A DNA stretch of 33,696 bases from the IMG/VR virus record IMGVR_UViG_2690316109_000019, positions 1 to 33,696 of that record. One strand, written 5' to 3'. Below, one piece after another: positions 3,588 through 28,284 of this stretch. The first letter of the stretch is position 1. Each line of letters begins with the position of its first letter. Made by a program: the position numbers and the translations under genes. The notes beneath the pieces are model-generated. The model had not been told where the DNA came from. It saw nothing but the letters and a program-made list of their open reading frames with translations, and searched no databases. This stretch comes from a virus (taxonomy: Duplodnaviria; Heunggongvirae; Uroviricota; Caudoviricetes).

Positions 3588-3862
3588 GTATTCGTATCGA
3601 AATTGGCGAACGTTATGTCGTTACCAGTGACAGCTTTCAGTTTATTCTCCACGAGAAAAAGAGAGCGGAAAGCGGTAAAAACGCCGGTCAGGAATGGCTG
3701 GCGGTGGTTGGTTATTACCCGAAATTAAGCCAGCTCGTTTCCGGCCTGATGCATCACGATATTCTGACCGGAAGCGCAAAGTCTTTTGCTGATTTAAACG
3801 CGCAGGTTGAGCAAATTAGTCAGCAATGTCTGACTGCATTTAACCATAAGTTCAGCCAATAA
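3584..3862 (+). CDS. Hypothetical early protein
   Basis: 92-aa ORF; ATGA overlap with the upstream gene. Confidence 0.55.
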   Translation: MSIRIEIGERYVVTSDSFQFILHEKKRAESGKNAGQEWLAVVGYYPKLSQLVSGLMHHDILTGSAKSFADLNAQVEQISQQCLTAFNHKFSQ

Positions 3863-4695: not shown

Positions 4696-6905
4696 CGATT
4701 TATGCTTACTCCTGGAACAAACCAAATGAAGCAATAGGACGCGAAAGATCTCTTACACGTGACGAGATGCGTCAGGTGCAAGGTGTTTTATCCACGATTA
4801 ACCGCCTGCCTTACTTTTTGCGTTCGCTGTTTACTTCACGCTATGACTACATCCGGCGCAATAAAAGCCCGGTGCACGGGTTTTATTTCCTCACATCCAC
4901 TTTTCAGCGTCGTTTATGGCCGCGCATTGAGCGTGTGAATCAGCGCCATGAAATGAACACCGACGCGTCGTTGCTGTTTCTGGCAGAGCGTGACCACTAT
5001 GCGCGCCTGCCGGGAATGAATGACAAGGAGCTGAAAAAGTTTGCCGCCCGTATCTCATCGCAGCTTTTCATGATGTATGAGGAACTCAGCGATGCCTGGG
5101 TGGATGCACATGGCGAAAAAGAATCGCTGTTTACGGATGAGGCACAGGATCACCTCTATGGTCATGTTGCTGGCGCTGCACGTGCTTTCAATATTTCCCC
5201 GCTTTACTGGAAAAAATACCGTAAAGGACAGATGACCACGAGGCAGGCATATTCTGCCATTGCCCGCCTGTTTAACGATGAGTGGTGGACCCATCAGCTT
5301 AAAGGCCAGCGTATGCGCTGGCATGAGGCGTTACTGATTGCTGTCGGGGAGGTCAATAAAGACCGTTCACCTTATGCCAGTAAACATGCCATTCGTGATG
5401 TGCGTGCGCGCCGCCAGGCAAATCTGGAGTTTCTTAAATCGTGTGACCTTGAAAACAGGGAAACCGGCGAGCGCATCGACCTTATCAGTAAGGTGATGGG
5501 CAGTATTTCTAATCCTGAAATTCGCCGGATGGAGCTGATGAACACCATTGCCGGTATTGAGCGTTACGCCGCTGCAGAGGGTGATGTGGGGATGTTTATC
5601 ACGCTGACCGCGCCGTCAAAGTATCACCCGACACGTCAGGTCGGAAAAGGCGAAAGTAAAACCGTGCAGCTTAATCACGGTTGGAACGATGAGGCATTTA
5701 ATCCAAAGGATGCGCAGCGTTATCTCTGCCGTATCTGGAGCCTGATGCGCACGGCATTCAAGGATAATGATTTACAGGTCTACGGTTTGCGTGTCGTCGA
5801 GCCACACCACGACGGAACGCCGCACTGGCATATGATGCTTTTTTGTAATCCACGCCAGCGTAACCAGATTATCGAAATCATGCGTCGCTATGCGCTCAAA
5901 GAGGATGGTGACGAAAGAGGAGCCGCGCGAAACCGTTTTCAGGCAAAACACCTTAACCGGGGCGGTGCTGCGGGATATATCGCGAAATACATCTCAAAAA
6001 ATATCGACGGCTATGCACTGGATGGGCAGCTCGATAACGATACCGGCAGACCGCTGAAAGATACTGCCGCGGCTGTTACCGCATGGGCGTCAACGTGGCG
6101 CATTCCGCAATTTAAAACGGTTGGCCTGCCGACAATGGGGGCTTACCGTGAACTACGCAAATTGCCTCGCGGCGTCAGCATTGCTGATGAGTTTGACGAG
6201 CGCGTCGAGGCTGCACGCGCCGCCGCAGACAGTGGTGATTTTGCGCTGTATATCAGCGCGCAGGGTGGGGCAAATGTCCCGCGCGATTGTCAGACTGTCA
6301 GGGTTGCCCGTAGTCCGTCGGATGAAGTTAACGAGTACGAGGAAGAAGTCGAGAGAGTGGTCGGCATTTACGCGCCGCATCTCGGCGCGCGTCATATTCA
6401 TATCACCAGAACGACGGACTGGCGCATTGTTCCGAAAGTGCCGGTCGTTGAGCCTTTGACTTTAAAAAGCGGCATCGCCGCGCCTCGGAGTCCTGTCAAT
6501 AACTGTGGAAAGCTCACCGGTGGTGATACTTCGTTACCGGCTCCCACACCTTCTGAGCACGCCGCAGCAGTGCTTAATCTGGTAGATGACGGTGTTATCG
6601 AATGGAGTGACCCGGAGGTAGTGATGGTGCTCAGGGGCGCATTAAAACACGGACTGAGAACACCAAATCGTCAGCAAAGAAACGGAATCCCGTTAAAACC
6701 GCATGAAATTGCACCATCTGCCAGACTGACCAGGTCTGAACGATTGCAAATTACCCGTATCCGCGTTGACCTCGCTCAGAACGGTATCAGGCCGCAACGA
6801 TGGGAGCTTGAGGCGCTGGCGCGTGGCGCGACCGTAAATTATGACGGGAAAAAATTCACGTATCCGGTTGCTGATGAGTGGCCGGGGTTCTCGTTACCCA
6901 TTTGA
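4692..6905 (+). CDS. A: Replication initiation protein (rolling-circle nickase, P2 gpA family)
   Basis: 737 aa; HUH-type metal motif 'PHWHMMLF'; paired tyrosines in 'AKYISKNIDGYALDG'; size and position as in P2. Confidence 0.93.
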   Translation: MTIYAYSWNKPNEAIGRERSLTRDEMRQVQGVLSTINRLPYFLRSLFTSRYDYIRRNKSPVHGFYFLTSTFQRRLWPRIERVNQRHEMNTDASLLFLAERDHYARLPGMNDKELKKFAARISSQLFMMYEELSDAWVDAHGEKESLFTDEAQDHLYGHVAGAARAFNISPLYWKKYRKGQMTTRQAYSAIARLFNDEWWTHQLKGQRMRWHEALLIAVGEVNKDRSPYASKHAIRDVRARRQANLEFLKSCDLENRETGERIDLISKVMGSISNPEIRRMELMNTIAGIERYAAAEGDVGMFITLTAPSKYHPTRQVGKGESKTVQLNHGWNDEAFNPKDAQRYLCRIWSLMRTAFKDNDLQVYGLRVVEPHHDGTPHWHMMLFCNPRQRNQIIEIMRRYALKEDGDERGAARNRFQAKHLNRGGAAGYIAKYISKNIDGYALDGQLDNDTGRPLKDTAAAVTAWASTWRIPQFKTVGLPTMGAYRELRKLPRGVSIADEFDERVEAARAAADSGDFALYISAQGGANVPRDCQTVRVARSPSDEVNEYEEEVERVVGIYAPHLGARHIHITRTTDWRIVPKVPVVEPLTLKSGIAAPRSPVNNCGKLTGGDTSLPAPTPSEHAAAVLNLVDDGVIEWSDPEVVMVLRGALKHGLRTPNRQQRNGIPLKPHEIAPSARLTRSERLQITRIRVDLAQNGIRPQRWELEALARGATVNYDGKKFTYPVADEWPGFSLPI

Positions 6906-7911: not shown

Positions 7912-9240
7912 ATGCGTATAAAAATTAATAATTTTGGAACTATTGCAGAAGCTGATGTTTCAGTTGGTGGTTTAACTGTCATAACTGGTGAAAATGATAC
8001 GGGGAAGAGTACCGTAGGGAAAATATTGTTTTCAATGGTAAAGGCGATATCTCGTTATCAAGAGGATTTAGAAGAAGACAAAGAGGATAGAATTACATCT
8101 ATCGTAGAGAAAATATATTTTAATCTGCGTAGGAGGATTAATATTGCTGCTACGCCGGAAATTAGAGAGTTATTCAATCCAAGAAAGTTTTATGCCTCTC
8201 TAAAAATAGATATCTCTAAAACTTTGGCTGAGAGAGAGAGTTATCTATATAATTTGATTGAGGAAGGGCTTCTTCCAGAATTGATGGCTGATTCTGTACT
8301 CTCTGATATAAGAAAAATCAGAGATATAATGCTTGAGCCAGATGATGAGCTATCTGCTATCAACCGTGCTCTGCGTAAGGCCTTTTACTCTGAATTTAGA
8401 GGCGAAATTATTCAGAAGGGTAATCAAAATCCAGTTAAAGCATCTCTGGAAGTTGTTGATGGTGTTAGTCAGTTAATTGATATTAAATGGACTAAAGATG
8501 GTATATCACAATTTGATTATACTGATGGCTTAGGATATGTCGACGCAACCTATGTTGACTCTCCAAGTATTATGCAATTTCATAATTTGGTTCGTTTTGC
8601 TAAAACTTTATTTGATAGTAATGGTGAATCAGGACGTCTAACTGTTCCATTGCATGTGAAAGATCTATCAATAAAATTAAGCGATTCAGTTTATAATTTA
8701 TTTGTGCATTCGGATATTTTTGATGATGGCTCATTTTTAAAAGAGTCACTGCGTATATCTAACAAAATCAATGCTACTTTCTGTGGTGAAGTGGTTTATG
8801 ATATTGAAAAGAATGATTTTTTTCTAGAGAAGCAAGGCTATAAAGTCACATCGGGTAATATTGCGTCAGGAATAAAGTCTTTAGGTATTCTTGATATGCT
8901 TGTTAAGTGCGGGGCAGCAGTAGATAACTCGTTACTGATTATTGATGAGCCAGAGGTGAACTTACATCCAAAATGGCAGGTTTTCTATGCTGAGATTATT
9001 TGTGAGTTAGTGTCTATGGGGGTTGATATAATAATTACAACACATAGCCCGTATATTATTGATGCTCTTAAACATTATAGCGATAAAATTGGGATTGAAA
9101 ATCGGTTCTATATAAGCGAGCGATTCCCTGGGGAAGAGTTTACATCTTTTGTTGATATTACTGATAATGTTGCATATGCAATTAATCTTTTGGCATCACC
9201 ATTAAAAGAATTGAATCAGGAGTATTTGGATGATTTCTAA
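7912..9240 (+). CDS. ABC-type (AAA_15/AAA_21-like) ATPase, candidate defence-system component
   Basis: 442 aa; Walker A 'GENDTGKST' at residues 26-34; ABC-signature-like 'VTSGNIASG'; Walker B 'LLIIDEPEVNLHP'; H-loop 'IITTHSPYIID'; about 300 residues inserted between Walker A and Walker B, as in SMC/RecF-like defence ATPases; AT-rich relative to the phage backbone. Confidence 0.85.
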   Translation: MRIKINNFGTIAEADVSVGGLTVITGENDTGKSTVGKILFSMVKAISRYQEDLEEDKEDRITSIVEKIYFNLRRRINIAATPEIRELFNPRKFYASLKIDISKTLAERESYLYNLIEEGLLPELMADSVLSDIRKIRDIMLEPDDELSAINRALRKAFYSEFRGEIIQKGNQNPVKASLEVVDGVSQLIDIKWTKDGISQFDYTDGLGYVDATYVDSPSIMQFHNLVRFAKTLFDSNGESGRLTVPLHVKDLSIKLSDSVYNLFVHSDIFDDGSFLKESLRISNKINATFCGEVVYDIEKNDFFLEKQGYKVTSGNIASGIKSLGILDMLVKCGAAVDNSLLIIDEPEVNLHPKWQVFYAEIICELVSMGVDIIITTHSPYIIDALKHYSDKIGIENRFYISERFPGEEFTSFVDITDNVAYAINLLASPLKELNQEYLDDF

Positions 9241-9847
9241 TGAGGAACTTGTTTTTAGAAAACTGTGTGAAGTATACCCTGATTCAATGGTTGATGTAAC
9301 CGGATTAAGCTACAATGATGCAGGGGCTCGGAATTTTATTATTTGTGATTCGAAGGGCTTTAACTATGATACGGTGTTAAATTGCTCGCCTGTTTATAAG
9401 CGTGAGTTTAAAGAAAAATCACCGGATGCTTTATTTTTATATGAAGATAAATTGTACTTCATTGAATTTAAAGAAGGACGTTCACAAAAGGATGATATAA
9501 GGTTGAAAATACATGAAGGTGTTACGACTTTATTTCATTTTGTATGTAAACACCTTCCAGAGTTGACAAGGCAAAATTTTGTAGAGCTTAATTTAAATTA
9601 TGCTGTCGTTTGTAGAGCTAGTGGACATAGAGATATGCGCAGTTCGGCAATGATTGCTGCTCTTGAGAACTCAAGTCAGCGATACAGCTTGAAAAATCTT
9701 GAGGGATTTATAATCAAGAAAACAGCAGTCATGGAGGAGCCTCAACAAATATTGAAGTTCCTTAACAAAATAAGTGCCGGAAAAGTAACATCGATTACTG
9801 TGTTTGAACACTTGGGGCAAACAGAAACGTTTTGCCTATCTGCTTGA
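9230..9847 (+). CDS. Partner protein of the ATPase (205 aa), possible nuclease effector
   Basis: AGGAG ribosome-binding site 8 nt upstream; 11-nt overlap with the ATPase gene (operon); possible degenerate HNH-like segment 'CKHLP...NLNYAVVCRASGH' or PD-(D/E)xK-like 'YEDKLYFIEFK'; neither motif is confirmed. Confidence 0.7.
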   Translation: MISNEELVFRKLCEVYPDSMVDVTGLSYNDAGARNFIICDSKGFNYDTVLNCSPVYKREFKEKSPDALFLYEDKLYFIEFKEGRSQKDDIRLKIHEGVTTLFHFVCKHLPELTRQNFVELNLNYAVVCRASGHRDMRSSAMIAALENSSQRYSLKNLEGFIIKKTAVMEEPQQILKFLNKISAGKVTSITVFEHLGQTETFCLSA

Positions 9848-19151: not shown

Positions 19152-20225
19152 TTACTTGCCATTTTTCAATGCGTTGATTAACGATGCTATTTGTTCAATA
19201 CCATCAAATGTAGATGGTATCTTATCATCGGATAGCATGATGTTTGAAAATACTACGTCTTCAAATTTTGAAAGCGCTTCCGGATTGTTTTTCCTTATCT
19301 CTGAGGAATAGTCGCTATAACTCTGAATGAACTGACAAAGGCTCTTTCTGAGTTCTATTTGCATAATCTGAGTTCGTAACGATATATGATTTATCAGTAC
19401 AACTCTAAAGTAATACATAAAAATCAATGTAACTGATGCAAAAGGTAGTGCTGACATAAAATATGTGGCAGCATTTGTCGTTTCGAGAGTTGGTAATTTA
19501 TGCATTCCATAGTATATCAGCGGGGAGGGAATGATTATAGCCAAGATGATAAGAATTATTCTTGATAGCATGATTTCACTTTCTTTCTTTTTGCCAAGTG
19601 AATTAAAGCCATCAAACAATCCAACAAAATTAAATGCGACCTCATACCCTTTTAATGACTCTTTAATTGACTCTATTTTGGCATGTTGCTCCTTTAAGAA
19701 GGAGTCGCACTTTTCGAAAAATTGACGCCCTTCGTTTAAACTATCAATGTATTTTTTATATGTGTCAACATTGCTGGAGCTTAAAACTTCTTTAACCATT
19801 GCTAATGGCAGTTCTCTAAGAGAAAAGTCTATCTGTGCTCTGCTCCGCTCATCGAATTCATTATAGTTATACAGAGCAAAATCCTTGATGGTTCTTAGTG
19901 GTGAAAAGTGAGACTCTATTTCCGGAGAGAGAATGCTTGGTTCAATGATAAATCTAAAAAAGCAAGTGAATATAAGGTTGATGCTGTTGTTATCTTCCCC
20001 CTTTTCTCTTAAGAAACTTTTAAAGGTGTCGCCAATCATAGCAATGTTGTACTGGGATTTTTTGTCCCAATCTTCAGGGTTTTCGGAAATGAAGTTTATT
20101 GCTTGAGCAATTATTTTGTTTCTGTTTGATTCAAAGTTTGTGCTGGGAGTCAGCGTGTTCAAAAAGACCAGATAATCTTTGAACAATTCTTTCATTGTTT
20201 CTGACGAGAAAAAGTAAGTACTCAT
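19152..20225 (-). CDS. AT-rich membrane-anchored cargo protein at the P2 orf30 position, function unknown
   Basis: About 357 aa from ATG 20225 (alternative ATG at 20195); soluble N-terminal region followed by two hydrophobic helices ('IMLSRIILIILAIIIPSPLIYYG', 'YFMSALPFASVTLIFMYYFRVVLINHI') and a C-terminal tail; antisense to the flanking late genes. Confidence 0.7.
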   Translation of the reverse strand: MSTYFFSSETMKELFKDYLVFLNTLTPSTNFESNRNKIIAQAINFISENPEDWDKKSQYNIAMIGDTFKSFLREKGEDNNSINLIFTCFFRFIIEPSILSPEIESHFSPLRTIKDFALYNYNEFDERSRAQIDFSLRELPLAMVKEVLSSSNVDTYKKYIDSLNEGRQFFEKCDSFLKEQHAKIESIKESLKGYEVAFNFVGLFDGFNSLGKKKESEIMLSRIILIILAIIIPSPLIYYGMHKLPTLETTNAATYFMSALPFASVTLIFMYYFRVVLINHISLRTQIMQIELRKSLCQFIQSYSDYSSEIRKNNPEALSKFEDVVFSNIMLSDDKIPSTFDGIEQIASLINALKNGK

Positions 20226-20311
20226 AATGGATTTTGTTGTCCCTTGTTGTTCTGTGCACCAGAAATCGTGGTGTGATTTACTTCGAGATTGTACAGAATC
20301 ATTATTATCGA

Positions 20312-20941
20312 ATGAATGCACAATACAATGAAATTCTTCGCTTTATACGCAATATGATTCGCACTGGCATTATCGTCGAAACCGACCTTAATGCCGGTCG
20401 CTGCCGTGTGCAGACCGGCGGCATGTGCACCGACTGGCTTCAGTGGCTGACCCATCGCGCTGGGCGTTCGCGCACATGGTGGGCACCTTCCGTGGGGGAA
20501 CAGGTGCTGATTCTGGCCGTGGGCGGTGAACTCGACACGGCGTTCGTTCTGCCGGGGATTTATTCCGGCGATAACCCAGCGCCGTCTGCGTCGTCTGATG
20601 CCCTGCATATCCGTTTCCCTGACGGGGCGGTGATTGAGTATGAACCCGAAACCAGTGCACTCACGGTAAGCGGAATTAAAACGGCCAGCGTGACGGCTTC
20701 TGATTCTGTTACTGCCACGGTGCCGGTGGTCATGGTGAAAGCGTCAACCCGCATCACCCTGGACACACCGGAGGTGGTCTGCACCAACAGGCTGATTACC
20801 GGCACGCTGGAAGTACAGAAGGGCGGGACGATGCGTGGCAACATTGAACACACCGGCGGTGAACTCTCATCAAACGGGAAGGTACTGCATACCCATAAAC
20901 ACCCCGGCGACAGCGGCGGCACAACCGGGAGTCCTCTATGA
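20312..20941 (+). CDS. V: Baseplate spike / assembly protein V
   Basis: 209 aa from ATG 20312; P2 gpV size; C-terminal Gly-rich 'HKHPGDSGGTTGSP'. Confidence 0.88.
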   Translation: MNAQYNEILRFIRNMIRTGIIVETDLNAGRCRVQTGGMCTDWLQWLTHRAGRSRTWWAPSVGEQVLILAVGGELDTAFVLPGIYSGDNPAPSASSDALHIRFPDGAVIEYEPETSALTVSGIKTASVTASDSVTATVPVVMVKASTRITLDTPEVVCTNRLITGTLEVQKGGTMRGNIEHTGGELSSNGKVLHTHKHPGDSGGTTGSPL

Positions 20942-22731: not shown

Positions 22732-25050
22732 ATGAGCACAAAATTCAAAACCGTTATCACCACTGCCGGTGCAGCAAAGCTGGCAGCGGCAACCGCACCG
22801 GGAGGGCGGAAGGTCAACATTACCACGATGGCCGTCGGGGATGGCGGTGGTAAATTGCCTGTCCCGGATGCCGGACAGACCGGGCTTATCCATGAAGTCT
22901 GGCGACATGCGCTGAACAAAATCAGCCAGGACAAACGAAACAGTAATTATATTATCGCAGAGCTGGTTATTCCGCCGGAGGTGGGCGGTTTCTGGATGCG
23001 TGAGCTTGGCCTGTACGATGATGCGGGAACGTTAATTGCTGTGGCGAACATGGCCGAAAGTTATAAGCCTGCCCTTGCCGAAGGCTCAGGGCGTTCGCAG
23101 ACCTGCCGCATGGTCATCATCGTCAGCAGTGTGGCCTCAGTGGCGCTGACCATTGACACCACAACGGTGATGGCGACGCAGGATTACGTTGATGACAAAA
23201 TTGCAGAGCACGAACAGTCACGACGTCACCCGGACGCCTCGCTAACCGCAAAAGGTTTTACTCAGTTAAGCAGTGCGACCAACAGCACGTCTGAAACACT
23301 GGCCGCAACGCCGAAAGCGGTTAAGGCCGCTTATGATCTTGCTAACGGGAAATATACCGCGCAGGATGCCACCACAGCGCGAAAAGGTCTTGTCCAGCTC
23401 AGTAGCGCCACCAATAGCGATTCTGAAACGCTTGCGGCAACGCCAAAGGCGGTAAAGGCAGCATATGACCTCGCTAACGGGAAATATACCGCACAGGATG
23501 CCACCACCGCGCGAAAAGGTCTTGTCCAGCTAAGTAGCGCCACCAACAGCGATTCTGAAACGCTGGCCGCAACGCCAAAGGCGGTTAAGACAGCGTATGA
23601 CCTTGCTAACGGGAAATACACTGCACAGGATGCCACCACCGCGCGAAAAGGTCTTGTCCAGCTAAGTAGCGCCACCAACAGTGATTCTGAAACACTGGCC
23701 GCAACACCAAAAGCGGTGAAGTCTGCCTATGACAATGCTGAAAAACGTCTTCAGAAAGATCAGAATGGTGCGGATATTCCGGGAAAGGATACCTTCACGA
23801 AAAATATCGGTGCCTGTCGTGCTTATAGCGGCGCTTTGAGCACTGAAGCCGGAAACTGGACAACCGCTCAGTTTATTGAATGGCTGGATTCCCGTGGTGC
23901 ATTTAATCATCCGTACTGGATGTGCAAAGGCTCCTGGTCATATGCAAATAACAAAATCATTACGGATACCGGATGTGGTGATATCCACCTGGCTGGTTGT
24001 GTCGTCGAGGTCATGGGAACAAAATCTGCAATCACTATTCGAGTGACCACGCCGACAACATCAAGCGGTGGCGGTACAACCAGCGCGCAATTCACTTACA
24101 TTAATCATGGGGACGGCTACTCCCCCGGCTGGCGTCGTGACTGGAATCGTCAGGGCGACGCAATGACCGGAACGATTAATCAGGATGGCGGAAGCCAGAA
24201 TGCCTATATGTCTACGGCCTTATGTTCAGGCACCAGAGGCGGCAAAAAATATCTCAGAAAGTTTCGTGGTGGAGAAGGAGACACTATCTGGCATGAAACA
24301 GTGCAGGGCGGGGTAATTCGCTGGGCGACAGGAAACTATGACGCTCAGGAAGAATTATCACTCAGCTCCGCTTATGGTCTCCGTTCTAGAGGTGAAATTA
24401 CATCACTCAGTGCTAATGGTCTGCGCATTGCTTATGGCAATTATGGATTCTTTATCAGGAATGATGGTGGCAGCACATATTTAATGCTGACGGCCTCTGG
24501 TGATAAATTTGGGACATGGAACGGTTTAAGGCCGCTGACTATCAATAACGCTAATGGCGGAGTGTCAATGGGGCATGGCCTGAGTGTTACTGGTGATATT
24601 GCCTCAAGTACCAAAGTACGTGCCGGTAGCGGGAAAAAGTTCACGGTCAGCAGCAGCAATACATCCACGAAGGAAGCCGCATTCAATTTGTGGGGAAACT
24701 CAAGTCGTCCTGTGGTGGCTGAATTAGGTGATGATGCAGGCTGGCATTTTTACAGTCAGAGAAATACAGATAACAGCATCACTTTTGCTGTTAACGGGCA
24801 GGTATCACCATCTAACTATAGTAATTTTGATTCACGCTATGTCCGGGATATCCGGCTTGGTGGTGCTGCCACATACAAACCTGCGAACAATGGCATGACA
24901 TGGACACATCAGGCACCGTCCGGGTGTGTATATTCCGGCATTATTGTTCAGGATACCGGCTCAAACTCTGCCGATAACATTGGTGGCGTATATTACAGAC
25001 CGGTGCAGAAATACATTAACGGGACTTGGTATAACGTGGCGCAGGTATAA
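22732..25050 (+). CDS. H: Tail fibre protein
   Basis: 772 aa; conserved N-terminal baseplate-attachment region; internal tandem 44-aa repeats; divergent C-terminal region. Confidence 0.92.
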   Translation: MSTKFKTVITTAGAAKLAAATAPGGRKVNITTMAVGDGGGKLPVPDAGQTGLIHEVWRHALNKISQDKRNSNYIIAELVIPPEVGGFWMRELGLYDDAGTLIAVANMAESYKPALAEGSGRSQTCRMVIIVSSVASVALTIDTTTVMATQDYVDDKIAEHEQSRRHPDASLTAKGFTQLSSATNSTSETLAATPKAVKAAYDLANGKYTAQDATTARKGLVQLSSATNSDSETLAATPKAVKAAYDLANGKYTAQDATTARKGLVQLSSATNSDSETLAATPKAVKTAYDLANGKYTAQDATTARKGLVQLSSATNSDSETLAATPKAVKSAYDNAEKRLQKDQNGADIPGKDTFTKNIGACRAYSGALSTEAGNWTTAQFIEWLDSRGAFNHPYWMCKGSWSYANNKIITDTGCGDIHLAGCVVEVMGTKSAITIRVTTPTTSSGGGTTSAQFTYINHGDGYSPGWRRDWNRQGDAMTGTINQDGGSQNAYMSTALCSGTRGGKKYLRKFRGGEGDTIWHETVQGGVIRWATGNYDAQEELSLSSAYGLRSRGEITSLSANGLRIAYGNYGFFIRNDGGSTYLMLTASGDKFGTWNGLRPLTINNANGGVSMGHGLSVTGDIASSTKVRAGSGKKFTVSSSNTSTKEAAFNLWGNSSRPVVAELGDDAGWHFYSQRNTDNSITFAVNGQVSPSNYSNFDSRYVRDIRLGGAATYKPANNGMTWTHQAPSGCVYSGIIVQDTGSNSADNIGGVYYRPVQKYINGTWYNVAQV
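23254..23742 (+). repeat. Tandem 132-bp (44-aa) repeat array inside the tail-fibre gene, about 3.7 copies
   Basis: Repeat units begin at 23254, 23386, 23518 and 23650 (the fourth is partial); unit 'GLVQLSSATNSDSETLAATPKAVKAAYDLANGKYTAQDATTARK'; copies differ mainly at synonymous sites. Confidence 0.9.
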
Positions 25051-25053
25051 TTT

Positions 25054-25581
25054 ATGCAGCATTTGATAAATATAATGGCAGGTAATCCAAAAACGGTTGA
25101 ACAATATCAATTGACAAAGGACTTTGATGTTGTCTGGTTTTTTTCAGAAGATGGTAAGAACTGGTACGAAGAACAAAAGTATTTTGCTGATGACACGATA
25201 AAAATAGCGTACGACAAAGATAATATTATCCGCTATGTGGAAAAGGATGTGACAGCTATCAGACCGGATGGATTAAGTGTTGTTGAAGTGCCGGATATTA
25301 CTGCTAACCGACGGGCGGACATTTCAGGGAACTGGATGTTTAAGGACGGTACAGTGATTAAACGAATTTATACGGCAGAGGAATTGCAGCAGCAGGCAGA
25401 AAATCGGAAAGCCAGACTTCTTGCAGATGCTGAATCCGTGATTTTGCCGCTGGAGCGCGCTGTTAGGCTGAATATGGCAACAGATGAGGAGCGCAGTCGA
25501 CTGGAGGCATGGGAACGCTACAGTGTTCTGGTCAGTCGTGTGGATCCTGCAAATCCTGAATGGCCGGAAATGCCGCAATAA
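25054..25581 (+). CDS. G: Tail fibre assembly chaperone
   Basis: 175 aa, same length as P2 gpG; immediately downstream of H. Confidence 0.82.
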
Positions 25582-25794
25582 GTTGTATGAGCTCTGGTGT
25601 GAGCTTACATATCTATGGCACAGAGTAAAGCCTAATCTGAGAGTCCGCTCTGTGCCAGGAGCGGACGTTCGTATGCTTGGCAACTTTGGTTTTCCTGAGT
25701 TCAACTTAACCACCTATGTATCATCGTAGCCTCTAAAGAATAATCATTTTAAAACCTTTTAACATTTGGTAATATGTATTCTATAGTGATCATT

Positions 25795-25830
25795 ATTTCC
25801 TATCTCCACGACAGTTATGAGATAGGAAAT
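25795..25830. promoter_or_regulatory. Perfect 12-bp inverted repeat upstream of the TIR gene (candidate operator)
   Basis: 'atttcctatctc' (25795-25806), 12-nt spacer, 'gagataggaaat' (25819-25830); 44 bp upstream of the TIR start codon, in an AT-rich promoter-like region. Confidence 0.45.
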
Positions 25831-25873
25831 TTAATATAGATGTCGTAATGATGACGATAAAAGTTGAGATGTC

Positions 25874-26839
25874 ATGACCAGTATATTTATATCCTATGCC
25901 AGAGAAGACTTTTTAATTGCAAAAAAACTAACCGAAGAACTAAATCGACATGAGTACAAGGTGTTTTTGGATCAACAATCGATTCAGCTTGGGGCTCATT
26001 GGCAAGAAGATATACTGAAGCATTTAAAAAATGCGGATGTATTTATCGCACTTGTTACTGAACATAGCGATAAGTCTTATTATTTTAATGCAGAGGTTAC
26101 TGGCGCTATATCCTATGTAGCTCATAGCAATCGGGATAAACTTATTTTGCCAGTGGTGCTGGATAAAGAAGTGCTTAATGATAGCGATCTTGGGGCCTTC
26201 CAAGCATTATTCGCACGCTCTGATGATATGACATACCTCGTACATGAAATTGTGAATGCTATCAGCCGCTTCGAAGGTGCCCGACTAGCTCAGGAAGAGA
26301 TAAAAGAAATTCGAGCACAAGTTCTTAAAGATGAATCAGCCGATTACATAAGCGAAACAATTGAGGATCTTAAGGCGCGCGAAAAAGCTGGTCGCCAATT
26401 ATCGTCAAGATGGCATTTTGCTGGATATGCGGCATTAATACTTTCTGTCATTTTCGTATTTATTCTTTGGTATTTGGCTGAGCGTTCATTTGTACAATCA
26501 CCTCTTGATACCACTAGACTGGTTTTCGATGCCATTAAGGGCGTAACGGTTGTTGCGTTACTTTTGGGCTTGGCAAGATATTCATTTTTAATGGCGAAAA
26601 CTCATCAATTAGAAGCTTTGAAGAACGCCGATCGTCTGCACGCCATTTCTTTCGGGAAATTTTATATGCGCGTTTTCTCTACGCAAATATCTCAATCTGA
26701 ATTAAAAGAAGTATTTCAACATTGGAATACTTCAGGGGCGTCAGATTTGTCGCATCTTGATGTAGATAAAATTGACTCGCGATTTATTGAACTCTTTGGG
26801 AAAATTGCATCAAGATTTGATGGCAAAAATAAACCTTAA
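25874..26839 (+). CDS. TIR-domain protein with two C-terminal transmembrane helices, candidate abortive-infection / defence effector
   Basis: 321 aa; N-terminal TIR signature 'IFISYAREDF ... KVFLD ... WQEDIL ... ADVFIALVTEHSDKSYYFNAEV' with a putative catalytic Glu near residue 74; coiled-coil linker; two hydrophobic helices ('AGYAALILSVIFVFILWYLA', 'VTVVALLLGLARYSFLMA'); AT-rich, at the P2 Z/fun cargo position. Confidence 0.85.
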   Translation: MTSIFISYAREDFLIAKKLTEELNRHEYKVFLDQQSIQLGAHWQEDILKHLKNADVFIALVTEHSDKSYYFNAEVTGAISYVAHSNRDKLILPVVLDKEVLNDSDLGAFQALFARSDDMTYLVHEIVNAISRFEGARLAQEEIKEIRAQVLKDESADYISETIEDLKAREKAGRQLSSRWHFAGYAALILSVIFVFILWYLAERSFVQSPLDTTRLVFDAIKGVTVVALLLGLARYSFLMAKTHQLEALKNADRLHAISFGKFYMRVFSTQISQSELKEVFQHWNTSGASDLSHLDVDKIDSRFIELFGKIASRFDGKNKP

Positions 26840-26970
26840 CTAAGGATTCTTCTTGTCAGGGCTGGTAATTAATTTAAGCCCGCTATTCGCTCAAAGCAGA
26901 CTATCAGATTTGATAGCGTTTGGGCTATGTAAATTGTCAGTCGGAAAATGAGTGAGTGCAAGTCAGGACA

Positions 26971-26997
26971 GGCGGGCGAATTGCCCGCCTTTTCTTT
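26971..26997 (+). terminator. Rho-independent terminator after the TIR gene
   Basis: 'ggcgggc gaatt gcccgcc ttttcttt': 7-bp GC stem followed by a T-run. Confidence 0.75.
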
Positions 26998-27093
26998 ATC
27001 TGTTGTTTCATCCACTGACCAGACAGGTCAAATAGCGTCTCAGGCACTGCCCAATAGAAAATAGTTGCACCCATTAACCACGGAGTTAAACGG

Positions 27094-28284
27094 ATGAGTG
27101 ACTATCATCACGGCGTGCAGGTGCTGGAGATTAACGACGGCACCCGCGTCATTTCCACCGTATCCACCGCCATTGTCGGCATGGTCTGCACGGCCAGCGA
27201 TGCGGATGCGGAAATCTTCCCCCTCAATAAACCGGTGCTGATTACCAATGTGCAGAGCGCAATTGCAAAGGCCGGTAAAAAAGGCACGCTGGCGGCATCG
27301 TTGCAGGCCATCGCCGACCAGTCAAAACCGGTCACCGTTGTCGTGCGTGTGGAAGACGGCACCGGCGAAGACGAAGAAACGAAACTCGCGCAGACTGTTT
27401 CCAATATCATCGGAACCACCGACGAAAACGGTCAGTACACCGGACTGAAAGCCCTGCTGGCGGCGGAGTCGGTAACCGGTGTTAAACCGCGTATTCTTGG
27501 TGTGCCGGGGCTGGATACCAAAGAGGTGGCTGTTGCACTGGCATCAGTCTGTCAGAAGCTGCGCGCTTTCGGGTATATCAGCGCATGGGGCTGTAAAACC
27601 ATTTCTGAGGTGAAAGCCTACCGCCAGAATTTCAGCCAGCGTGAGCTGATGGTCATCTGGCCGGATTTCCTCGCATGGGATACGGTCGCCAGTACCACCG
27701 CCACCGCGTATGCCACCGCCCGTGCGCTGGGCCTGCGCGCTAAAATCGACCAGGAGCAGGGCTGGCATAAAACGCTGTCCAACGTCGGGGTAAACGGTGT
27801 TACCGGCATCAGTGCCTCTGTATTCTGGGATTTGCAGGAGTCCGGCACCGATGCTGACCTGTTGAACGAGTCAGGTGTCACAACGCTGATTCGCCGTGAC
27901 GGTTTCCGCTTCTGGGGTAACCGTACCTGCTCTGATGACCCGCTGTTCCTCTTTGAAAACTACACCCGCACCGCGCAGGTGCTGGCCGACACGATGGCTG
28001 AGGCGCACATGTGGGCGGTGGACAAGCCCATCACTGCAACGCTGATTCGCGACATCGTTGACGGCATCAATGCCAAATTCCGTGAGCTGAAAACAAACGG
28101 CTATATCGTGGATGCGACCTGCTGGTTCAGCGAAGAATCCAACGATGCGGAAACCCTCAAGGCCGGAAAACTGTATATCGACTACGACTATACCCCGGTG
28201 CCTCCTCTTGAAAACCTGACCCTGCGCCAGCGTATCACCGATAAATATCTGGCAAATCTGGTCACCTCGGTTAACAGCAATTAA
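27094..28284 (+). CDS. FI: Tail sheath protein
   Basis: 396 aa, same length as P2 FI. Confidence 0.93.
   Translation: MSDYHHGVQVLEINDGTRVISTVSTAIVGMVCTASDADAEIFPLNKPVLITNVQSAIAKAGKKGTLAASLQAIADQSKPVTVVVRVEDGTGEDEETKLAQTVSNIIGTTDENGQYTGLKALLAAESVTGVKPRILGVPGLDTKEVAVALASVCQKLRAFGYISAWGCKTISEVKAYRQNFSQRELMVIWPDFLAWDTVASTTATAYATARALGLRAKIDQEQGWHKTLSNVGVNGVTGISASVFWDLQESGTDADLLNESGVTTLIRRDGFRFWGNRTCSDDPLFLFENYTRTAQVLADTMAEAHMWAVDKPITATLIRDIVDGINAKFRELKTNGYIVDATCWFSEESNDAETLKAGKLYIDYDYTPVPPLENLTLRQRITDKYLANLVTSVNSN

What the first reader, a model, noticed from the sequence alone, without database searches (positions are those of the whole stretch)
25874..26839. Single-gene TIR-2TM protein at the P2 Z/fun cargo position between tail-fibre chaperone G and sheath FI
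Seen in sequence: a 321-aa ORF whose first ~120 residues carry a canonical TIR pattern (IFISYAREDF; KVFLD; ADVFIALVTEHSDKSYYFNAEV, with a Glu at about residue 74 where bacterial TIR NADases place the catalytic glutamate). A charged coiled-coil linker and two strongly hydrophobic helices follow. The gene is AT-rich, has its own promoter-like region with a perfect 12-bp inverted repeat, and ends at an intrinsic terminator, so it is an autonomous moron inside the late structural operon. Established knowledge: in P2 this G/FI gap holds the fun(Z) exclusion gene; bacterial TIR domains act as NAD+-degrading or signal-producing modules in Thoeris, CBASS and Pycsar, and TM-anchored TIR proteins have been reported from P2/P4 hotspots. 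Inference: this is a stand-alone TIR-TM abortive-infection effector or sensor-effector. No cyclase, ThsA-like or second TM-protein partner is encoded nearby, which separates it from the multi-gene TIR systems I know.
Basis: partly seen in the sequence, partly recalled or inferred. Interest (0 to 1): 0.8.

Follow-up and report, generated by a model that had tools for sequence, protein, structure and literature searches.

The report
Single-gene TIR–membrane-module phage defence candidate
A P2-like prophage carries, in the slot where phage P2 keeps its Fun/Z exclusion gene, a self-contained gene for a membrane-anchored TIR enzyme fused to an undescribed, almost invariant membrane module; it is most likely a one-protein suicide defence against other phages, but no experiment has tested this.

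Summary
ORF 25874-26839 encodes 321 aa: an N-terminal TIR domain (Pfam TIR_2, E = 6e-21; TIR fold confirmed; catalytic-position Glu74 kept in 95% of relatives), a charged helical stalk, and two TM helices. It sits in a 1.2-kb AT-rich cassette (25667-26887) between G and FI of a P2-like prophage.

A juxtamembrane motif after TM2 (ExLKNADRxHAISFGKF…KEVFQHWN) is about 70% identical across phyla, against 30% for the TIR, and has ω ≈ 0. Together with the stalk and the 2TM hairpin it forms a portable module (707 clusters). About 87% of these carry a TIR head; others carry EAD11 adaptors or coiled coils. That argues the module is an effector.

The gene stands alone. No neighbour recurs across 49 species loci, and the same cassette with its promoter occurs in at least six unrelated contexts. 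It matches no Pfam SLATT model or PADLOC system model beyond its TIR domain.

The strong terminator belongs to the phage backbone, not the cassette. Two systematic TIR surveys excluded stand-alone TIRs.

Best reading: a one-protein abortive-infection system. The function is untested.

The parts
25054..25581 (+). Left backbone gene: tail-fibre assembly protein (P2 G)
   Evidence: Pfam Caudo_TAP at 1.2e-34. About 96% DNA identity to Peduovirus P2.
25616..25666 (.). Backbone hairpin pair that ends exactly at the left cargo junction (TGGCACAGAG/CTCTGTGCCA and GTCCGCTC/GAGCGGAC)
   Evidence: Inverted repeats I3 and I8. Conserved in prophages with Lit or DUF4145 cargo. Diverged copies, or the last 7 nt, also precede the cassette in Serratia, Salmonella and Klebsiella.
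25667..26887 (+). Cargo cassette (about 1,221 bp, AT-rich): promoter, leader, ORF and a short 3' hairpin
   Evidence: Boundaries come from alignment with P2-like prophages carrying other cargo and with the Serratia locus that shares the whole cassette. GC is 0.33-0.42.
25759..25787 (+). Sigma-70-like promoter candidate TTAACA-17-TATAGT
   Evidence: 10 of 12 matches. Conserved in the E. coli, Serratia, Salmonella and Klebsiella copies. The count of such sites is not above shuffles, so this is a candidate only.
25795..25830 (+). Perfect 12-bp inverted repeat (ATTTCCTATCTC-N12-GAGATAGGAAAT) just downstream of the -10 hexamer; either an operator or a 5'-terminal mRNA stem-loop
   Evidence: Arms are conserved and the loop varies across four genera. 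As RNA the leader folds at -23.7 kcal/mol, z = -3.46.
25874..26839 (+). ORF of 321 aa: the TIR-stalk-2TM-motif protein
25874..26227 (+). TIR domain (residues 1-118); the catalytic-position Glu74 is codon 26093-26095
   Evidence: TIR_2 at 6.4e-21. Fold matches. PDB profile hits. E74 aligns with the BtTir W-x-x-x-E Glu and is 95% conserved.
26228..26407 (+). Charged helical stalk (residues 119-178), continuous with TM1; conserved L166 and E170
   Evidence: A single helix 119-208 in the AF2 model. Conservation.
26408..26602 (+). Transmembrane hairpin: TM1 (about residues 179-207), a short unconserved loop (208-214), TM2 (about 215-243)
   Evidence: Hydropathy peaks. The loop is 10% identical to distant members, TM2 38%.
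26603..26731 (+). Juxtamembrane motif blocks: residues 244-266 (E247, D253, R254, H256, F260, G261, F263) and 274-286 (K278, F281, Q282, W284, N285)
   Evidence: About 70% identity to distant members, against 30% for the TIR. Residues are 96-100% conserved in 229 proteins. dN/dS is 0-0.04. No Pfam or PADLOC model; matches phrog_2628.
26732..26836 (+). Variable, low-confidence C-terminal tail (residues 287-321)
   Evidence: pLDDT below 50 for 286-304. 26% identity to distant members.
26888..27093 (+). Right backbone segment, including the intrinsic terminator 26970-26990 plus T run, upstream of FI
   Evidence: Terminator scan. The segment is conserved in prophages with Lit or DUF4145 cargo and absent from the Serratia cassette.
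27094..28284 (+). Right backbone gene: tail sheath (P2 FI)
   Evidence: Pfam Phage_sheath_1 at 1e-33.

Best explanation
This is a self-contained, single-gene anti-phage abortive-infection protein. It is carried as a promoter-bearing moron in the P2 Fun/Z slot and expressed from the lysogen.

Topology is N-in/C-in. A catalytically competent TIR domain sits in the cytoplasm on a roughly 60-residue helical stalk that runs straight into TM1. A short periplasmic loop and TM2 follow. The chain then returns to the cytoplasm as an almost invariant juxtamembrane motif.

The stalk + 2TM + motif unit is a portable membrane-effector module. The N-terminal head is the input or assembly domain.

Proposed sequence of events: a phage cue drives TIR-TIR assembly. 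That assembly (a) completes composite NADase active sites so that NAD+ is cleaved, and (b) clusters the membrane modules through the stalk so that they breach or depolarise the inner membrane. The infected cell dies before the phage completes its cycle.

Shown: the architecture, the conservation pattern, the modularity, the autonomy and the mobility.

Inferred: the defence role, the trigger, NAD+ cleavage, membrane damage and the coupling between them.
For: TIR identity and enzymatic competence:
- TIR_2 at 6e-21.
- TIR fold, with nearest matches to NADase TIRs: SPARTA, SARM1, AbTir and Cat1.
- Glu74 lies on the catalytic W-x-x-x-E Glu and is kept in 95% of 229 relatives.

The module looks like an effector:
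- Its motif is the most constrained part of the protein: 70% against 30% identity; E247, R254, H256, G261, W284 and N285 at about 100%; ω of 0-0.04.
- The periplasmic loop is short and unconserved (10% identity), so sensing outside the membrane is unlikely.
- The same module occurs behind other heads: tandem TIR, EAD11 x2 (7 clusters), long coiled coils and divergent TIR-like domains. EADs are described as homotypic adaptors that couple effectors to sensor NTPases (PMC7159879).
- The 90-residue continuous helix 119-208 is implausible as a monomer, which implies oligomerisation.

Autonomy:
- No neighbour family occurs in more than 3 of 49 loci.
- The cassette with its promoter and inverted repeat occurs in the P2 G-FI slot, after ogr in an Enterobacter P2 remnant, in Salmonella, Klebsiella and Serratia islands, and on a Pantoea plasmid.
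- No Thoeris, CBASS or Pycsar partner is present in the prophage.

Defence context:
- The slot holds the Fun/Z Abi system in P2 (PMC8594841).
- In other E. coli prophages the slot holds Lit-family, DUF4145 and DUF6615 cargo.
- Non-phage copies lie near HNH/methylase genes, HicAB, PIN, BrxR and DUF262.
Against: - There are no functional data of any kind.
- The module has no significant match to any known pore-forming or effector family. There is no Pfam SLATT hit in 44 + 21 sequences at E <= 10, no PADLOC hit, and only weak, generic long-helix structural matches.
- An invariant polar/aromatic motif (D-R-x-H...Q-H-W-N) fits a ligand pocket or a catalytic site at least as well as a pore interface.
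- EAD coupling does not prove an effector role, because some EADs recruit signalling components. The EAD11-headed genes I could inspect were at contig edges, so no cognate sensor was seen.
- How a 118-residue TIR alone would recognise a phage is unexplained.
- The AF2 model is a monomer of moderate confidence (pLDDT 76.5, pTM 0.50).
Confidence: 0.5

Rival explanations
1. One-protein Thoeris. The activated TIR makes a diffusible ADP-ribose-derived signal (a cADPR isomer or similar). The signal is bound by the invariant juxtamembrane pocket of the same and neighbouring molecules, which opens the 2TM module as a pore. The signal generator and the signal-gated membrane effector, separate genes in Thoeris types II and VII, are fused into one chain here, and copies amplify the signal in trans.
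For: - Type VII Thoeris pairs a TIR with a 2TM SLATT effector gated by cADPR. It is modelled with positively charged cytoplasmic pockets between protomers (bioRxiv 10.64898/2025.12.03.692087).
- Here the invariant residues are polar or aromatic (R254, H256, K242, K278, W284, N285, Q282, F260, F263), as expected for a nucleotide pocket.
- The catalytic Glu is conserved.
- The best NCBIfam and PADLOC TIR matches include Thoeris ThsB-type models: ThcB4 at 1e-15 and ThsB at 4e-9.
- SLATT-annotated viral proteins recur among weak structural hits.
Against: - No sequence homology to SLATT was detectable.
- The module also works behind non-enzymatic heads (EAD11, coiled coil) that cannot make a TIR product.
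- No true split, two-gene version was found. The apparent module-only genes are truncations or nonsense-interrupted copies.
- TIR subtype matches do not discriminate signal-makers from NAD+ depleters.
Confidence: 0.2
2. NADase-only effector on a membrane platform. Killing is purely by NAD+ depletion. The 2TM + motif module is a membrane anchor that senses a phage-induced membrane event or a phage membrane protein, and clusters the TIR domains. It does not damage the membrane itself.
For: - The nearest TIR structures are NAD+-depleting effectors activated by oligomerisation: SPARTA, SARM1 and Cat1.
- Catalytic Glu at 95%.
- P2-slot cargo such as Fun/Z is itself a membrane protein.
- Stand-alone TIRs are conventionally classed as NAD+ depleters.
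Against: - A sensing surface in an arms race should vary. Instead the module's motif is nearly invariant from Enterobacteria to Clostridia and Planctomycetes, and the only exposed loop is short and unconserved.
- The module occurs without any TIR (EAD11 or coiled-coil heads), where it must provide an output of its own.
Confidence: 0.25
3. Effector subunit of a dispersed TIR network. The TIR head is mainly a homotypic adaptor, as in TLR/MyD88 signalling and analogous to EAD11. It recruits the membrane module to assemblies nucleated by separate sensor TIR proteins encoded elsewhere.
For: - Head swapping with EAD11 adaptors.
- In several Bacteroidota loci the gene is adjacent to LRR-TIR and coiled-coil-TIR genes, and in Gimesia to another TIR protein.
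Against: - Such neighbours occur in only about 10% of loci.
- The enterobacterial cassette moves alone among at least six contexts with its own promoter.
- No other TIR gene is present in this prophage.
- The conserved catalytic Glu argues for enzymatic activity rather than pure scaffolding.
Confidence: 0.1
4. Not a defence gene. It could be a Tcp-like TIR virulence factor that interferes with host TLR signalling, or a lysogenic-conversion or superinfection-exclusion membrane protein with no suicide function.
For: - The profile matches Tcp-family TIRs: TcpB/BtpA and PdTIR.
- P2-like prophage morons can affect virulence (PMC3573123, listed).
- The slot in some E. coli holds cargo annotated as 'lysogenic conversion protein'.
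Against: - There is no signal peptide or secretion context, and the TIR is predicted to be cytoplasmic on an inner-membrane hairpin.
- The family is spread through free-living soil and marine bacteria such as Gimesia, Pyxidicoccus, Microbulbifer, Nitrospirales and Chlorobiaceae.
- The architecture differs from Tcp proteins, which have an N-terminal coiled coil and a C-terminal TIR.
Confidence: 0.05

Closest known systems
Type VII Thoeris (ThsB TIR + ThsH SLATT 2TM effector, cADPR signal; Yirmiya et al. 2025 preprint)
   Same: It combines a TIR domain with a two-TM membrane protein that has a conserved cytoplasmic region. It has a phage-defence context and is likely an abortive outcome.
   Different: Here the two parts are one polypeptide rather than two genes. 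The membrane module has no detectable SLATT sequence match. No signal molecule is known. That study discarded stand-alone TIR proteins.
Type II Thoeris (ThsB TIR + Macro-2TM effector)
   Same: The logic of a TIR plus a 2TM membrane effector.
   Different: There is no Macro domain, it is a single gene, and the conserved domain follows the TM hairpin rather than preceding it.
Rousset 2TM + 1TM + TIR system of P2-like phage AC1 (DefenseFinder name 'Rst_2TM_1TM_TIR', recalled from memory)
   Same: A TIR-based defence carried as cargo by a P2-like phage, with membrane proteins as presumed effectors.
   Different: It has three separate genes. It lies at the other hotspot (gpA-gpQ, the old/tin slot), not G-FI. 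Its TIR protein is not itself membrane-anchored.
TIR effectors of CBASS, Pycsar and type III CRISPR (Cap12 TIR-SAVED, PycTIR, PADLOC 'TIR-TM', Cat1 CARF-TIR)
   Same: A TIR fused to a second domain in one chain. The TIR is activated by oligomerisation to deplete NAD+. Cat1 is the best PDB sequence match (1.3e-12).
   Different: These need an adjacent cyclase or CRISPR signal generator and a SAVED, cNMP-binding or CARF sensor domain. None is present here. The PADLOC TIR-TM model matches only weakly and only over the TIR part (E = 0.0066).
P2 Fun/Z abortive-infection system
   Same: It has the same genomic slot between G and FI. It is a prophage-expressed exclusion function of unknown mechanism (PMC8594841). 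The 233-aa P2 occupant is also a membrane protein.
   Different: There is no sequence relationship (BLASTP E = 0.012 for one short stretch; hhalign probability 0.9%). P2's genes are on the opposite strand and have no TIR.
EAD-coupled effectors of NTPase-centred conflict systems (Kaur et al. 2020, eLife)
   Same: Relatives of this protein carry the identical stalk + 2TM + motif module behind two EAD11 adaptor domains. That places the module among adaptor-recruited components.
   Different: This protein has a TIR head rather than an EAD, and no NTPase partner. The module itself is not named in that work as far as I could read.

Membership tests
TIR domain superfamily (Pfam TIR_2 PF13676) | Profile match above the curated threshold | tested here: met
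   75.5 bits against a 28-bit cut-off, E = 6.4e-21, residues 4-115. All 44 aligned relatives match.
TIR domain superfamily (Pfam TIR_2 PF13676) | Flavodoxin-like TIR fold | tested here: met
   The AF2 model matches SPARTA, SARM1, AbTir and plant TIR structures at Foldseek probability 1.00 and TM (target-normalised) of 0.7-0.8.
Enzymatic (NADase-type) TIR | Conserved catalytic glutamate in the W-x-x-x-E position | tested here: met
   E74 aligns with that Glu in BtTir, Cat1 and PdTIR. It is Glu in 95% of 229 relatives.
Enzymatic (NADase-type) TIR | NAD+ cleavage, or cADPR-isomer production | not testable with these tools
   This needs a biochemical assay.
Thoeris (any type) | A TIR gene (ThsB) in an operon with a separate effector gene | tested here: not met
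   There is no conserved neighbour in 49 loci, and none in six enterobacterial contexts. Apparent split copies are nonsense or truncation artefacts.
Thoeris (any type) | The TIR makes a signalling molecule that activates the effector | not testable with these tools
   This would need LC-MS of infected lysates.
SLATT (SMODS and SLOG-associating 2TM effector) superfamily | Match to a Pfam SLATT or DUF4231 profile | tested here: not met
   The 25 most-matched Pfam families listed for each set (of 78 for the 44 full-length proteins and 42 for the 21 C-terminal fragments, E <= 10) include no SLATT family. A single-member weak hit further down those lists cannot be excluded.
SLATT (SMODS and SLOG-associating 2TM effector) superfamily | Two-TM helical hairpin architecture or fold | tested here: inconclusive
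   A 2TM hairpin is present. SLATT-annotated viral proteins appear only as weak hits (E = 0.03-0.25), mixed with generic long-helix proteins. I could not obtain SLATT sequences for a profile-profile test.
CBASS / Pycsar TIR effectors | An adjacent CD-NTase or pyrimidine cyclase, plus a SAVED or cNMP-sensing domain | tested here: not met
   No such domain is in the protein. No cyclase is in the prophage or among neighbours. CAP12-PCTIR_TIR scores 15.7 bits, below its 24.7-bit cut-off.
PADLOC single-gene candidates (PDC-S66; TIR-TM PDLC03016) | Full-length match to the system's profile | tested here: not met
   Only the TIR part aligns: PDC-S66 profile positions 151-253 of 282, and TIR-TM at E = 0.0066 over residues 34-131. 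The C-terminal module alone has no PADLOC hit.
Rousset 2TM + 1TM + TIR system (P2-like phage AC1) | Three genes: a 2TM protein, a 1TM protein and a TIR protein | tested here: not met
   This is a single gene in a different P2 slot.
AbiC-like (Pfam putAbiC PF16872) | Profile match above the curated threshold | tested here: not met
   12.7 bits against a 22-bit cut-off, E = 0.19, over the motif region, in 2 of 21 sequences. This is a lead only.
P2 Fun/Z | Sequence homology to the P2 G-FI slot proteins | tested here: not met
   BLASTP E = 0.012 and 9.7; hhalign probability 0.9%. Only the genomic position is shared.
phrog_2628 (phage protein family of unknown function) | Profile match | tested here: met
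   Residues 142-293 match profile positions 132-284 of 314 at 3.7e-12. All 21 C-terminal fragments match, with a best E of 2.4e-20. The family has no annotated function.

The most novel reading that the evidence does not exclude
This could be a one-protein Thoeris. The TIR head produces a cADPR-type nucleotide, and the invariant juxtamembrane pocket (E247, D253, R254, H256, W284, N285) of the same protein family binds it and gates a new class of 2TM pore. The stalk + 2TM + motif unit would then be a previously unnamed, widely distributed (707 clusters) nucleotide- or assembly-gated membrane effector. It would be reused behind TIR, EAD11 and coiled-coil heads, and it would have been overlooked because systematic TIR surveys discard stand-alone TIR genes.
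Probability: 0.2. Interest if true: 0.85.

Novelty: new variant of a known kind. Interest (0 to 1): 0.6.

Why it matters
TIR-based immunity is being mapped intensively. The two systematic surveys I read explicitly removed stand-alone or single-gene TIR proteins, so families like this one fall through the net.

If the protein protects on its own, it would be a minimal TIR defence system of 321 aa in a 1.2-kb cassette with its own promoter. Sensing, enzyme and membrane output would sit in one chain, which makes it convenient for dissecting how TIR assembly is coupled to an effector.

It would also define a new, very conserved membrane-effector module found in at least ten phyla. Its invariant residues give immediate mutational targets.

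Finally, it documents the P2 G-FI (Fun/Z) slot as a second cargo hotspot. 2,043 of 5,426 complete E. coli genomes carry the slot's flanks, and they hold varied cargo. This slot is separate from the gpA-gpQ hotspot surveyed by Rousset et al.

Tried and rejected
1. SLATT homology. There were no Pfam SLATT hits. I tried to reach real SLATT sequences through phage TIR proteins (Javan47, EFC-1), but they have no SLATT partner. The Thoeris preprint supplement gives only IMG identifiers. Structural searches gave only weak, generic helical matches. This stays unresolved rather than rejected.

2. Split two-gene versions. The module-only proteins turned out to be 5' truncations, an in-frame nonsense split (L008), or a remnant (B. 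thuringiensis plasmid).

3. Homology to P2 Fun/Z. A pairwise hit over the motif (E = 0.012) collapsed at profile level (hhalign probability 0.9%), and the domain order differs.

4. A partner inside the prophage. The old/tin slot holds an unrelated AAA_15/AAA_21 ATPase pair, and the orf30 slot holds an unannotated 389-aa protein. Neither is a cyclase, ThsA-like or SLOG protein.

5. EAD11-headed relatives' context. Both genes lie at the ends of short contigs, so no cognate NTPase could be seen.

6. Phage collection. tblastn found no copy of the protein or its module in 50,697 phage records.

7. The afdb50 fold library was unavailable.

8. Literature. No bacterial 'TIR-TM', 'TIR-2TM' or 'TIR-SLATT' fusion is named in the held library.

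9. putAbiC (PF16872). The hit falls over the motif region but is below threshold, so I kept it only as a lead.
Full report

Yes. The ORF runs 25874..26839 on the + strand, starts with ATG and encodes 321 aa.

Residues 4-115 match Pfam TIR_2 at E = 6.4e-21, scoring 75.5 bits against a 28-bit threshold. An AlphaFold2 model built on a 44-sequence alignment (mean pLDDT 76.5) gives an alpha/beta TIR fold for residues 1-118. Foldseek matches it to SPARTA TIR-APAZ, the SARM1 TIR, AbTir and plant TIRs at probability 1.00. A profile of the family hits Cat1, PdTIR and AbTir in the PDB at about 1e-12.

Glu74 (codon 26093-26095) aligns with the Glu of the W-x-x-x-E motif in BtTir, Cat1 and PdTIR. It is Glu in 95% of 229 full-length relatives.

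A single predicted helix runs from residue 119 to 208. Two hydrophobic segments give 19-residue Kyte-Doolittle means of 2.28 (183-202) and 2.08 (216-234). The distribution of Lys and Arg favours an N-in/C-in topology.

GC falls to 0.33-0.42 across 25600-26950, against 0.53-0.60 on both sides.

The perfect 12-bp inverted repeat is at 25795-25806 / 25819-25830. It lies just downstream of a sigma-70-like site, TTAACA-17-TATAGT, at 25759-25787 (10 of 12 matches). The number of such sites in the region is not above shuffled controls. The promoter call therefore rests on conservation, not on the scan.

One correction is needed. The strong intrinsic terminator (26970-26990 plus a T run) is 131 nt past the stop codon. 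It lies in backbone DNA that is conserved in P2-like prophages carrying quite different cargo. It is a phage element, not the cassette's terminator.

**2. Where it sits**

The window is a Peduovirus (P2-like) prophage. The G region is about 96% identical to P2. The flanking genes are tail fibre H, assembly protein G (Caudo_TAP), and then sheath FI and tube FII.

In P2 itself the G-FI gap holds two minus-strand genes of 233 and 85 aa. This is the Fun/Z region, an abortive-infection system of unknown mechanism (Maffei et al. 2021, PMC8594841).

I aligned the slot with E. coli prophages that carry a Lit-family gene or a DUF4145 gene there. This fixes the cargo boundaries at 25666|25667 and 26887|26888, so the cassette is about 1,221 bp.

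Of 5,426 complete E. coli genomes, 2,043 carry the flanks and none carries this cassette. The slot holds many different cargoes. The exact protein is nevertheless common in draft assemblies: 408 index blocks and 194 contigs. All six places inspected have the same H-G-TIR-FI arrangement.

**3. The gene is an autonomous, mobile unit**

The Serratia homologue (93% amino-acid identity) lies next to nrdDG, not in a prophage. It shares the whole cassette at DNA level, including the promoter-like site and the inverted repeat.

Other copies sit in these contexts:
- a Salmonella island with HNH and methylase genes;
- a Klebsiella island with PIN, umuDC and HicAB;
- directly after ogr in an Enterobacter P2 remnant;
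- a Pantoea plasmid near BrxR.

The promoter, the repeat arms and the leader are conserved in the four closest genera, with invariant arms and a variable loop. As RNA the leader folds at -23.7 kcal/mol, z = -3.46. Whether the repeat acts as an operator or as a 5' mRNA stem-loop is open.

A scan of about 100,000 species-representative genomes found 49 loci. They span Proteobacteria, Myxococcota, Planctomycetota, Chlorobi, many Bacteroidota, Clostridia, Spirochaetes and Actinobacteria. I clustered the 502 neighbouring ORFs. No family is present in more than 3 loci, and those few are confined to related Clostridia. None is a P2 backbone gene.

Inside this prophage the other two AT-rich islands are an AAA_15/AAA_21 ATPase pair in the old/tin slot and an unannotated 389-aa gene in the orf30 slot. 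Neither is a plausible TIR partner.

Among the enterobacterial copies dN/dS is 0.12-0.24, so the gene is maintained by selection.

**4.

In the 44-sequence alignment the invariant columns cluster after TM2: D253, R254, H256, A257, I258, F260, G261, F263, F281, W284 and N285.

Identity between this protein and its distant relatives, by region:

| Region | Identity |
|---|---|
| TIR domain | 30% |
| TM1 | 26% |
| Periplasmic loop | 10% |
| TM2 | 38% |
| Motif blocks 244-266 and 274-286 | about 70% |

In 229 representatives E247, R254, H256, G261, W284 and N285 are about 100% conserved. The motif's dN/dS is 0-0.04 while dS is 0.2-0.5.

No Pfam or PADLOC model covers this region. It matches only phrog_2628, which has unknown function.

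An exhaustive profile search with the C-terminal 186 residues finds 707 clusters at 50% identity, 334 of them at E <= 1e-30. Of 275 retrieved proteins with room for a head domain, 239 have a TIR head. One has tandem TIRs. Seven have two EAD11 domains. Five have long coiled coils, two of them with an HNH-like remnant. Many of the rest look like divergent TIR-like alpha/beta domains.

EADs were defined as homotypic adaptors that tether effector or signalling domains to sensor NTPases (Kaur et al. 2020, PMC7159879). A constant stalk + 2TM + motif unit behind interchangeable heads is the pattern expected of an output module.

**5. Mechanism**

Best explanation (confidence about 0.5): a one-protein abortive-infection system. 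The cytoplasmic TIR head is the input and assembly domain and is enzymatically competent. Infection-triggered TIR-TIR assembly would complete NADase active sites. Through the long stalk it would also cluster the 2TM + motif modules so that they compromise the inner membrane.

What is shown: architecture, conservation, modularity, autonomy and mobility.

What is inferred: the defence role, the trigger, NAD+ cleavage, membrane damage and their coupling.

Rivals:
- (a) A one-protein Thoeris, in which a TIR-made nucleotide is bound by the invariant pocket and gates the pore (0.2). The polar/aromatic invariants and the type VII TIR + SLATT precedent make it attractive. The non-enzymatic heads weaken it.
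- (b) A NADase-only effector, with the module acting as anchor or sensor (0.25). The module's extreme conservation and its occurrence without a TIR argue against it.
- (c) An effector subunit recruited by separate sensor TIR proteins (0.1). LRR-TIR and coiled-coil-TIR neighbours in some Bacteroidota, and a second TIR in Gimesia, suggest it. That applies to only about 10% of loci.
- (d) A virulence or conversion factor (0.05).

**6. Comparison with known systems**

It works most like Thoeris types II and VII, or like oligomerisation-activated TIR effectors such as Cat1, SPARTA and Cap12. It is a member of none.

- Thoeris requires a separate effector gene. This was tested and not met.
- CBASS, Pycsar and CRISPR TIR effectors need a signal-generating partner and a SAVED, cNMP-binding or CARF domain. 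Not met.
- The AC1 system of Rousset et al. has three genes at the gpA-gpQ hotspot.
- PADLOC's PDC-S66 and TIR-TM profiles align only with the TIR part.
- SLATT membership fails at sequence level and is inconclusive at fold level.
- It shares only its position with P2 Fun/Z.

**7. Novelty and verdict**

Public databases annotate the protein only as 'toll/interleukin-1 receptor domain-containing protein'.

The two systematic studies I could read both excluded single-gene or stand-alone TIRs. I found no named bacterial TIR-TM fusion in the held literature. That library is incomplete, so prior description elsewhere cannot be excluded.

I rate it a new variant of a known kind: TIR-based abortive defence, with an unnamed conserved membrane module fused in cis.

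Interest is 0.6. It is a well-defined, immediately testable candidate with clear mutational targets. However, a TIR-membrane fusion is not conceptually surprising, and nothing has been shown experimentally.

Noticed in passing
window 7912-9847: A second AT-rich cargo island (GC 0.33-0.38) lies in the gpA-gpQ (old/tin) hotspot. It holds a 442-aa AAA_15/AAA_21 ATPase (PADLOC HEC-02A at 1.8e-33, PD-T4-4_A at 1.7e-30) plus an overlapping 205-aa protein with no hits. It is probably an independent two-gene ATPase defence system.
   Followed up: partly
window 19152-20321 (minus strand): A third AT-rich moron (GC 0.34) encodes a 389-aa protein with no Pfam or PADLOC hit. It sits between the tail-completion genes and V, at the position of P2 orf30.
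   Followed up: partly
window 25616-25666; L001 about 5620-5680; L015 and L018 about 3760-3770: Two overlapping backbone hairpins end exactly at the left cargo junction. Diverged copies of them, or their last 7 nt (AGCGGAC), also precede the TIR cassette in non-P2 loci of Serratia, Salmonella and Klebsiella. Either the cassette left a P2 slot with a piece of backbone attached, or the hairpin is a recombination site.
   Followed up: partly
window 25850-25873 compared with L001, L015 and L018: The E. coli copy lacks about 25-28 nt of the 5' leader, just upstream of the ribosome-binding region, that the Serratia, Salmonella and Klebsiella copies have. Any effect on expression is unknown.
   Followed up: no
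L044 7578-10401; L046 6177-7307; L047 2941-4068; L072 1909-2835; L005 4828-5895: In several Bacteroidota genomes the TIR-2TM gene is followed by other TIR genes: LRR-TIR (about 375 aa) and coiled-coil-TIR (about 285-308 aa). In Gimesia a 355-aa protein with a C-terminal TIR lies directly upstream. These are small TIR gene clusters and could indicate TIR-TIR cross-talk.
   Followed up: partly
L063, L065, L066, L068 (about +120 and +550 nt downstream of the gene): In four related Clostridia the gene is followed by two small conserved genes (about 138 aa and about 195 aa), each with predicted hydrophobic segments. This could be a lineage-specific three-gene arrangement.
   Followed up: no
L008 533-1492 (also L009, L034): A Rhizobiales MAG copy has an in-frame stop codon that splits the gene into a 98-aa TIR fragment and a 220-aa module ORF. 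The same split is seen in several assemblies. It may be a pseudogene or a read-through or split variant.
   Followed up: partly
L012 3508-4209 (P2 gp22, the Fun/Z slot): The 233-aa P2 occupant of the slot has several C-terminal hydrophobic segments, so it is itself a membrane protein. A short resemblance to the motif region (BLASTP E = 0.012) was not supported by hhalign (probability 0.9%).
   Followed up: yes
window 22732-25050: Tail fibre H carries four tandem Phage_fiber_2 repeats ('…TARKGLVQLSSATNSDSETLAATPKAVK…') and a T4 gp34-like trimerisation domain.
   Followed up: no
L030 (Rheinheimera pacifica): A 73%-identical copy occurs in a marine gammaproteobacterium outside the Enterobacterales. 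This is far closer than the next non-enterobacterial relatives (about 35%) and suggests recent horizontal transfer.
   Followed up: no
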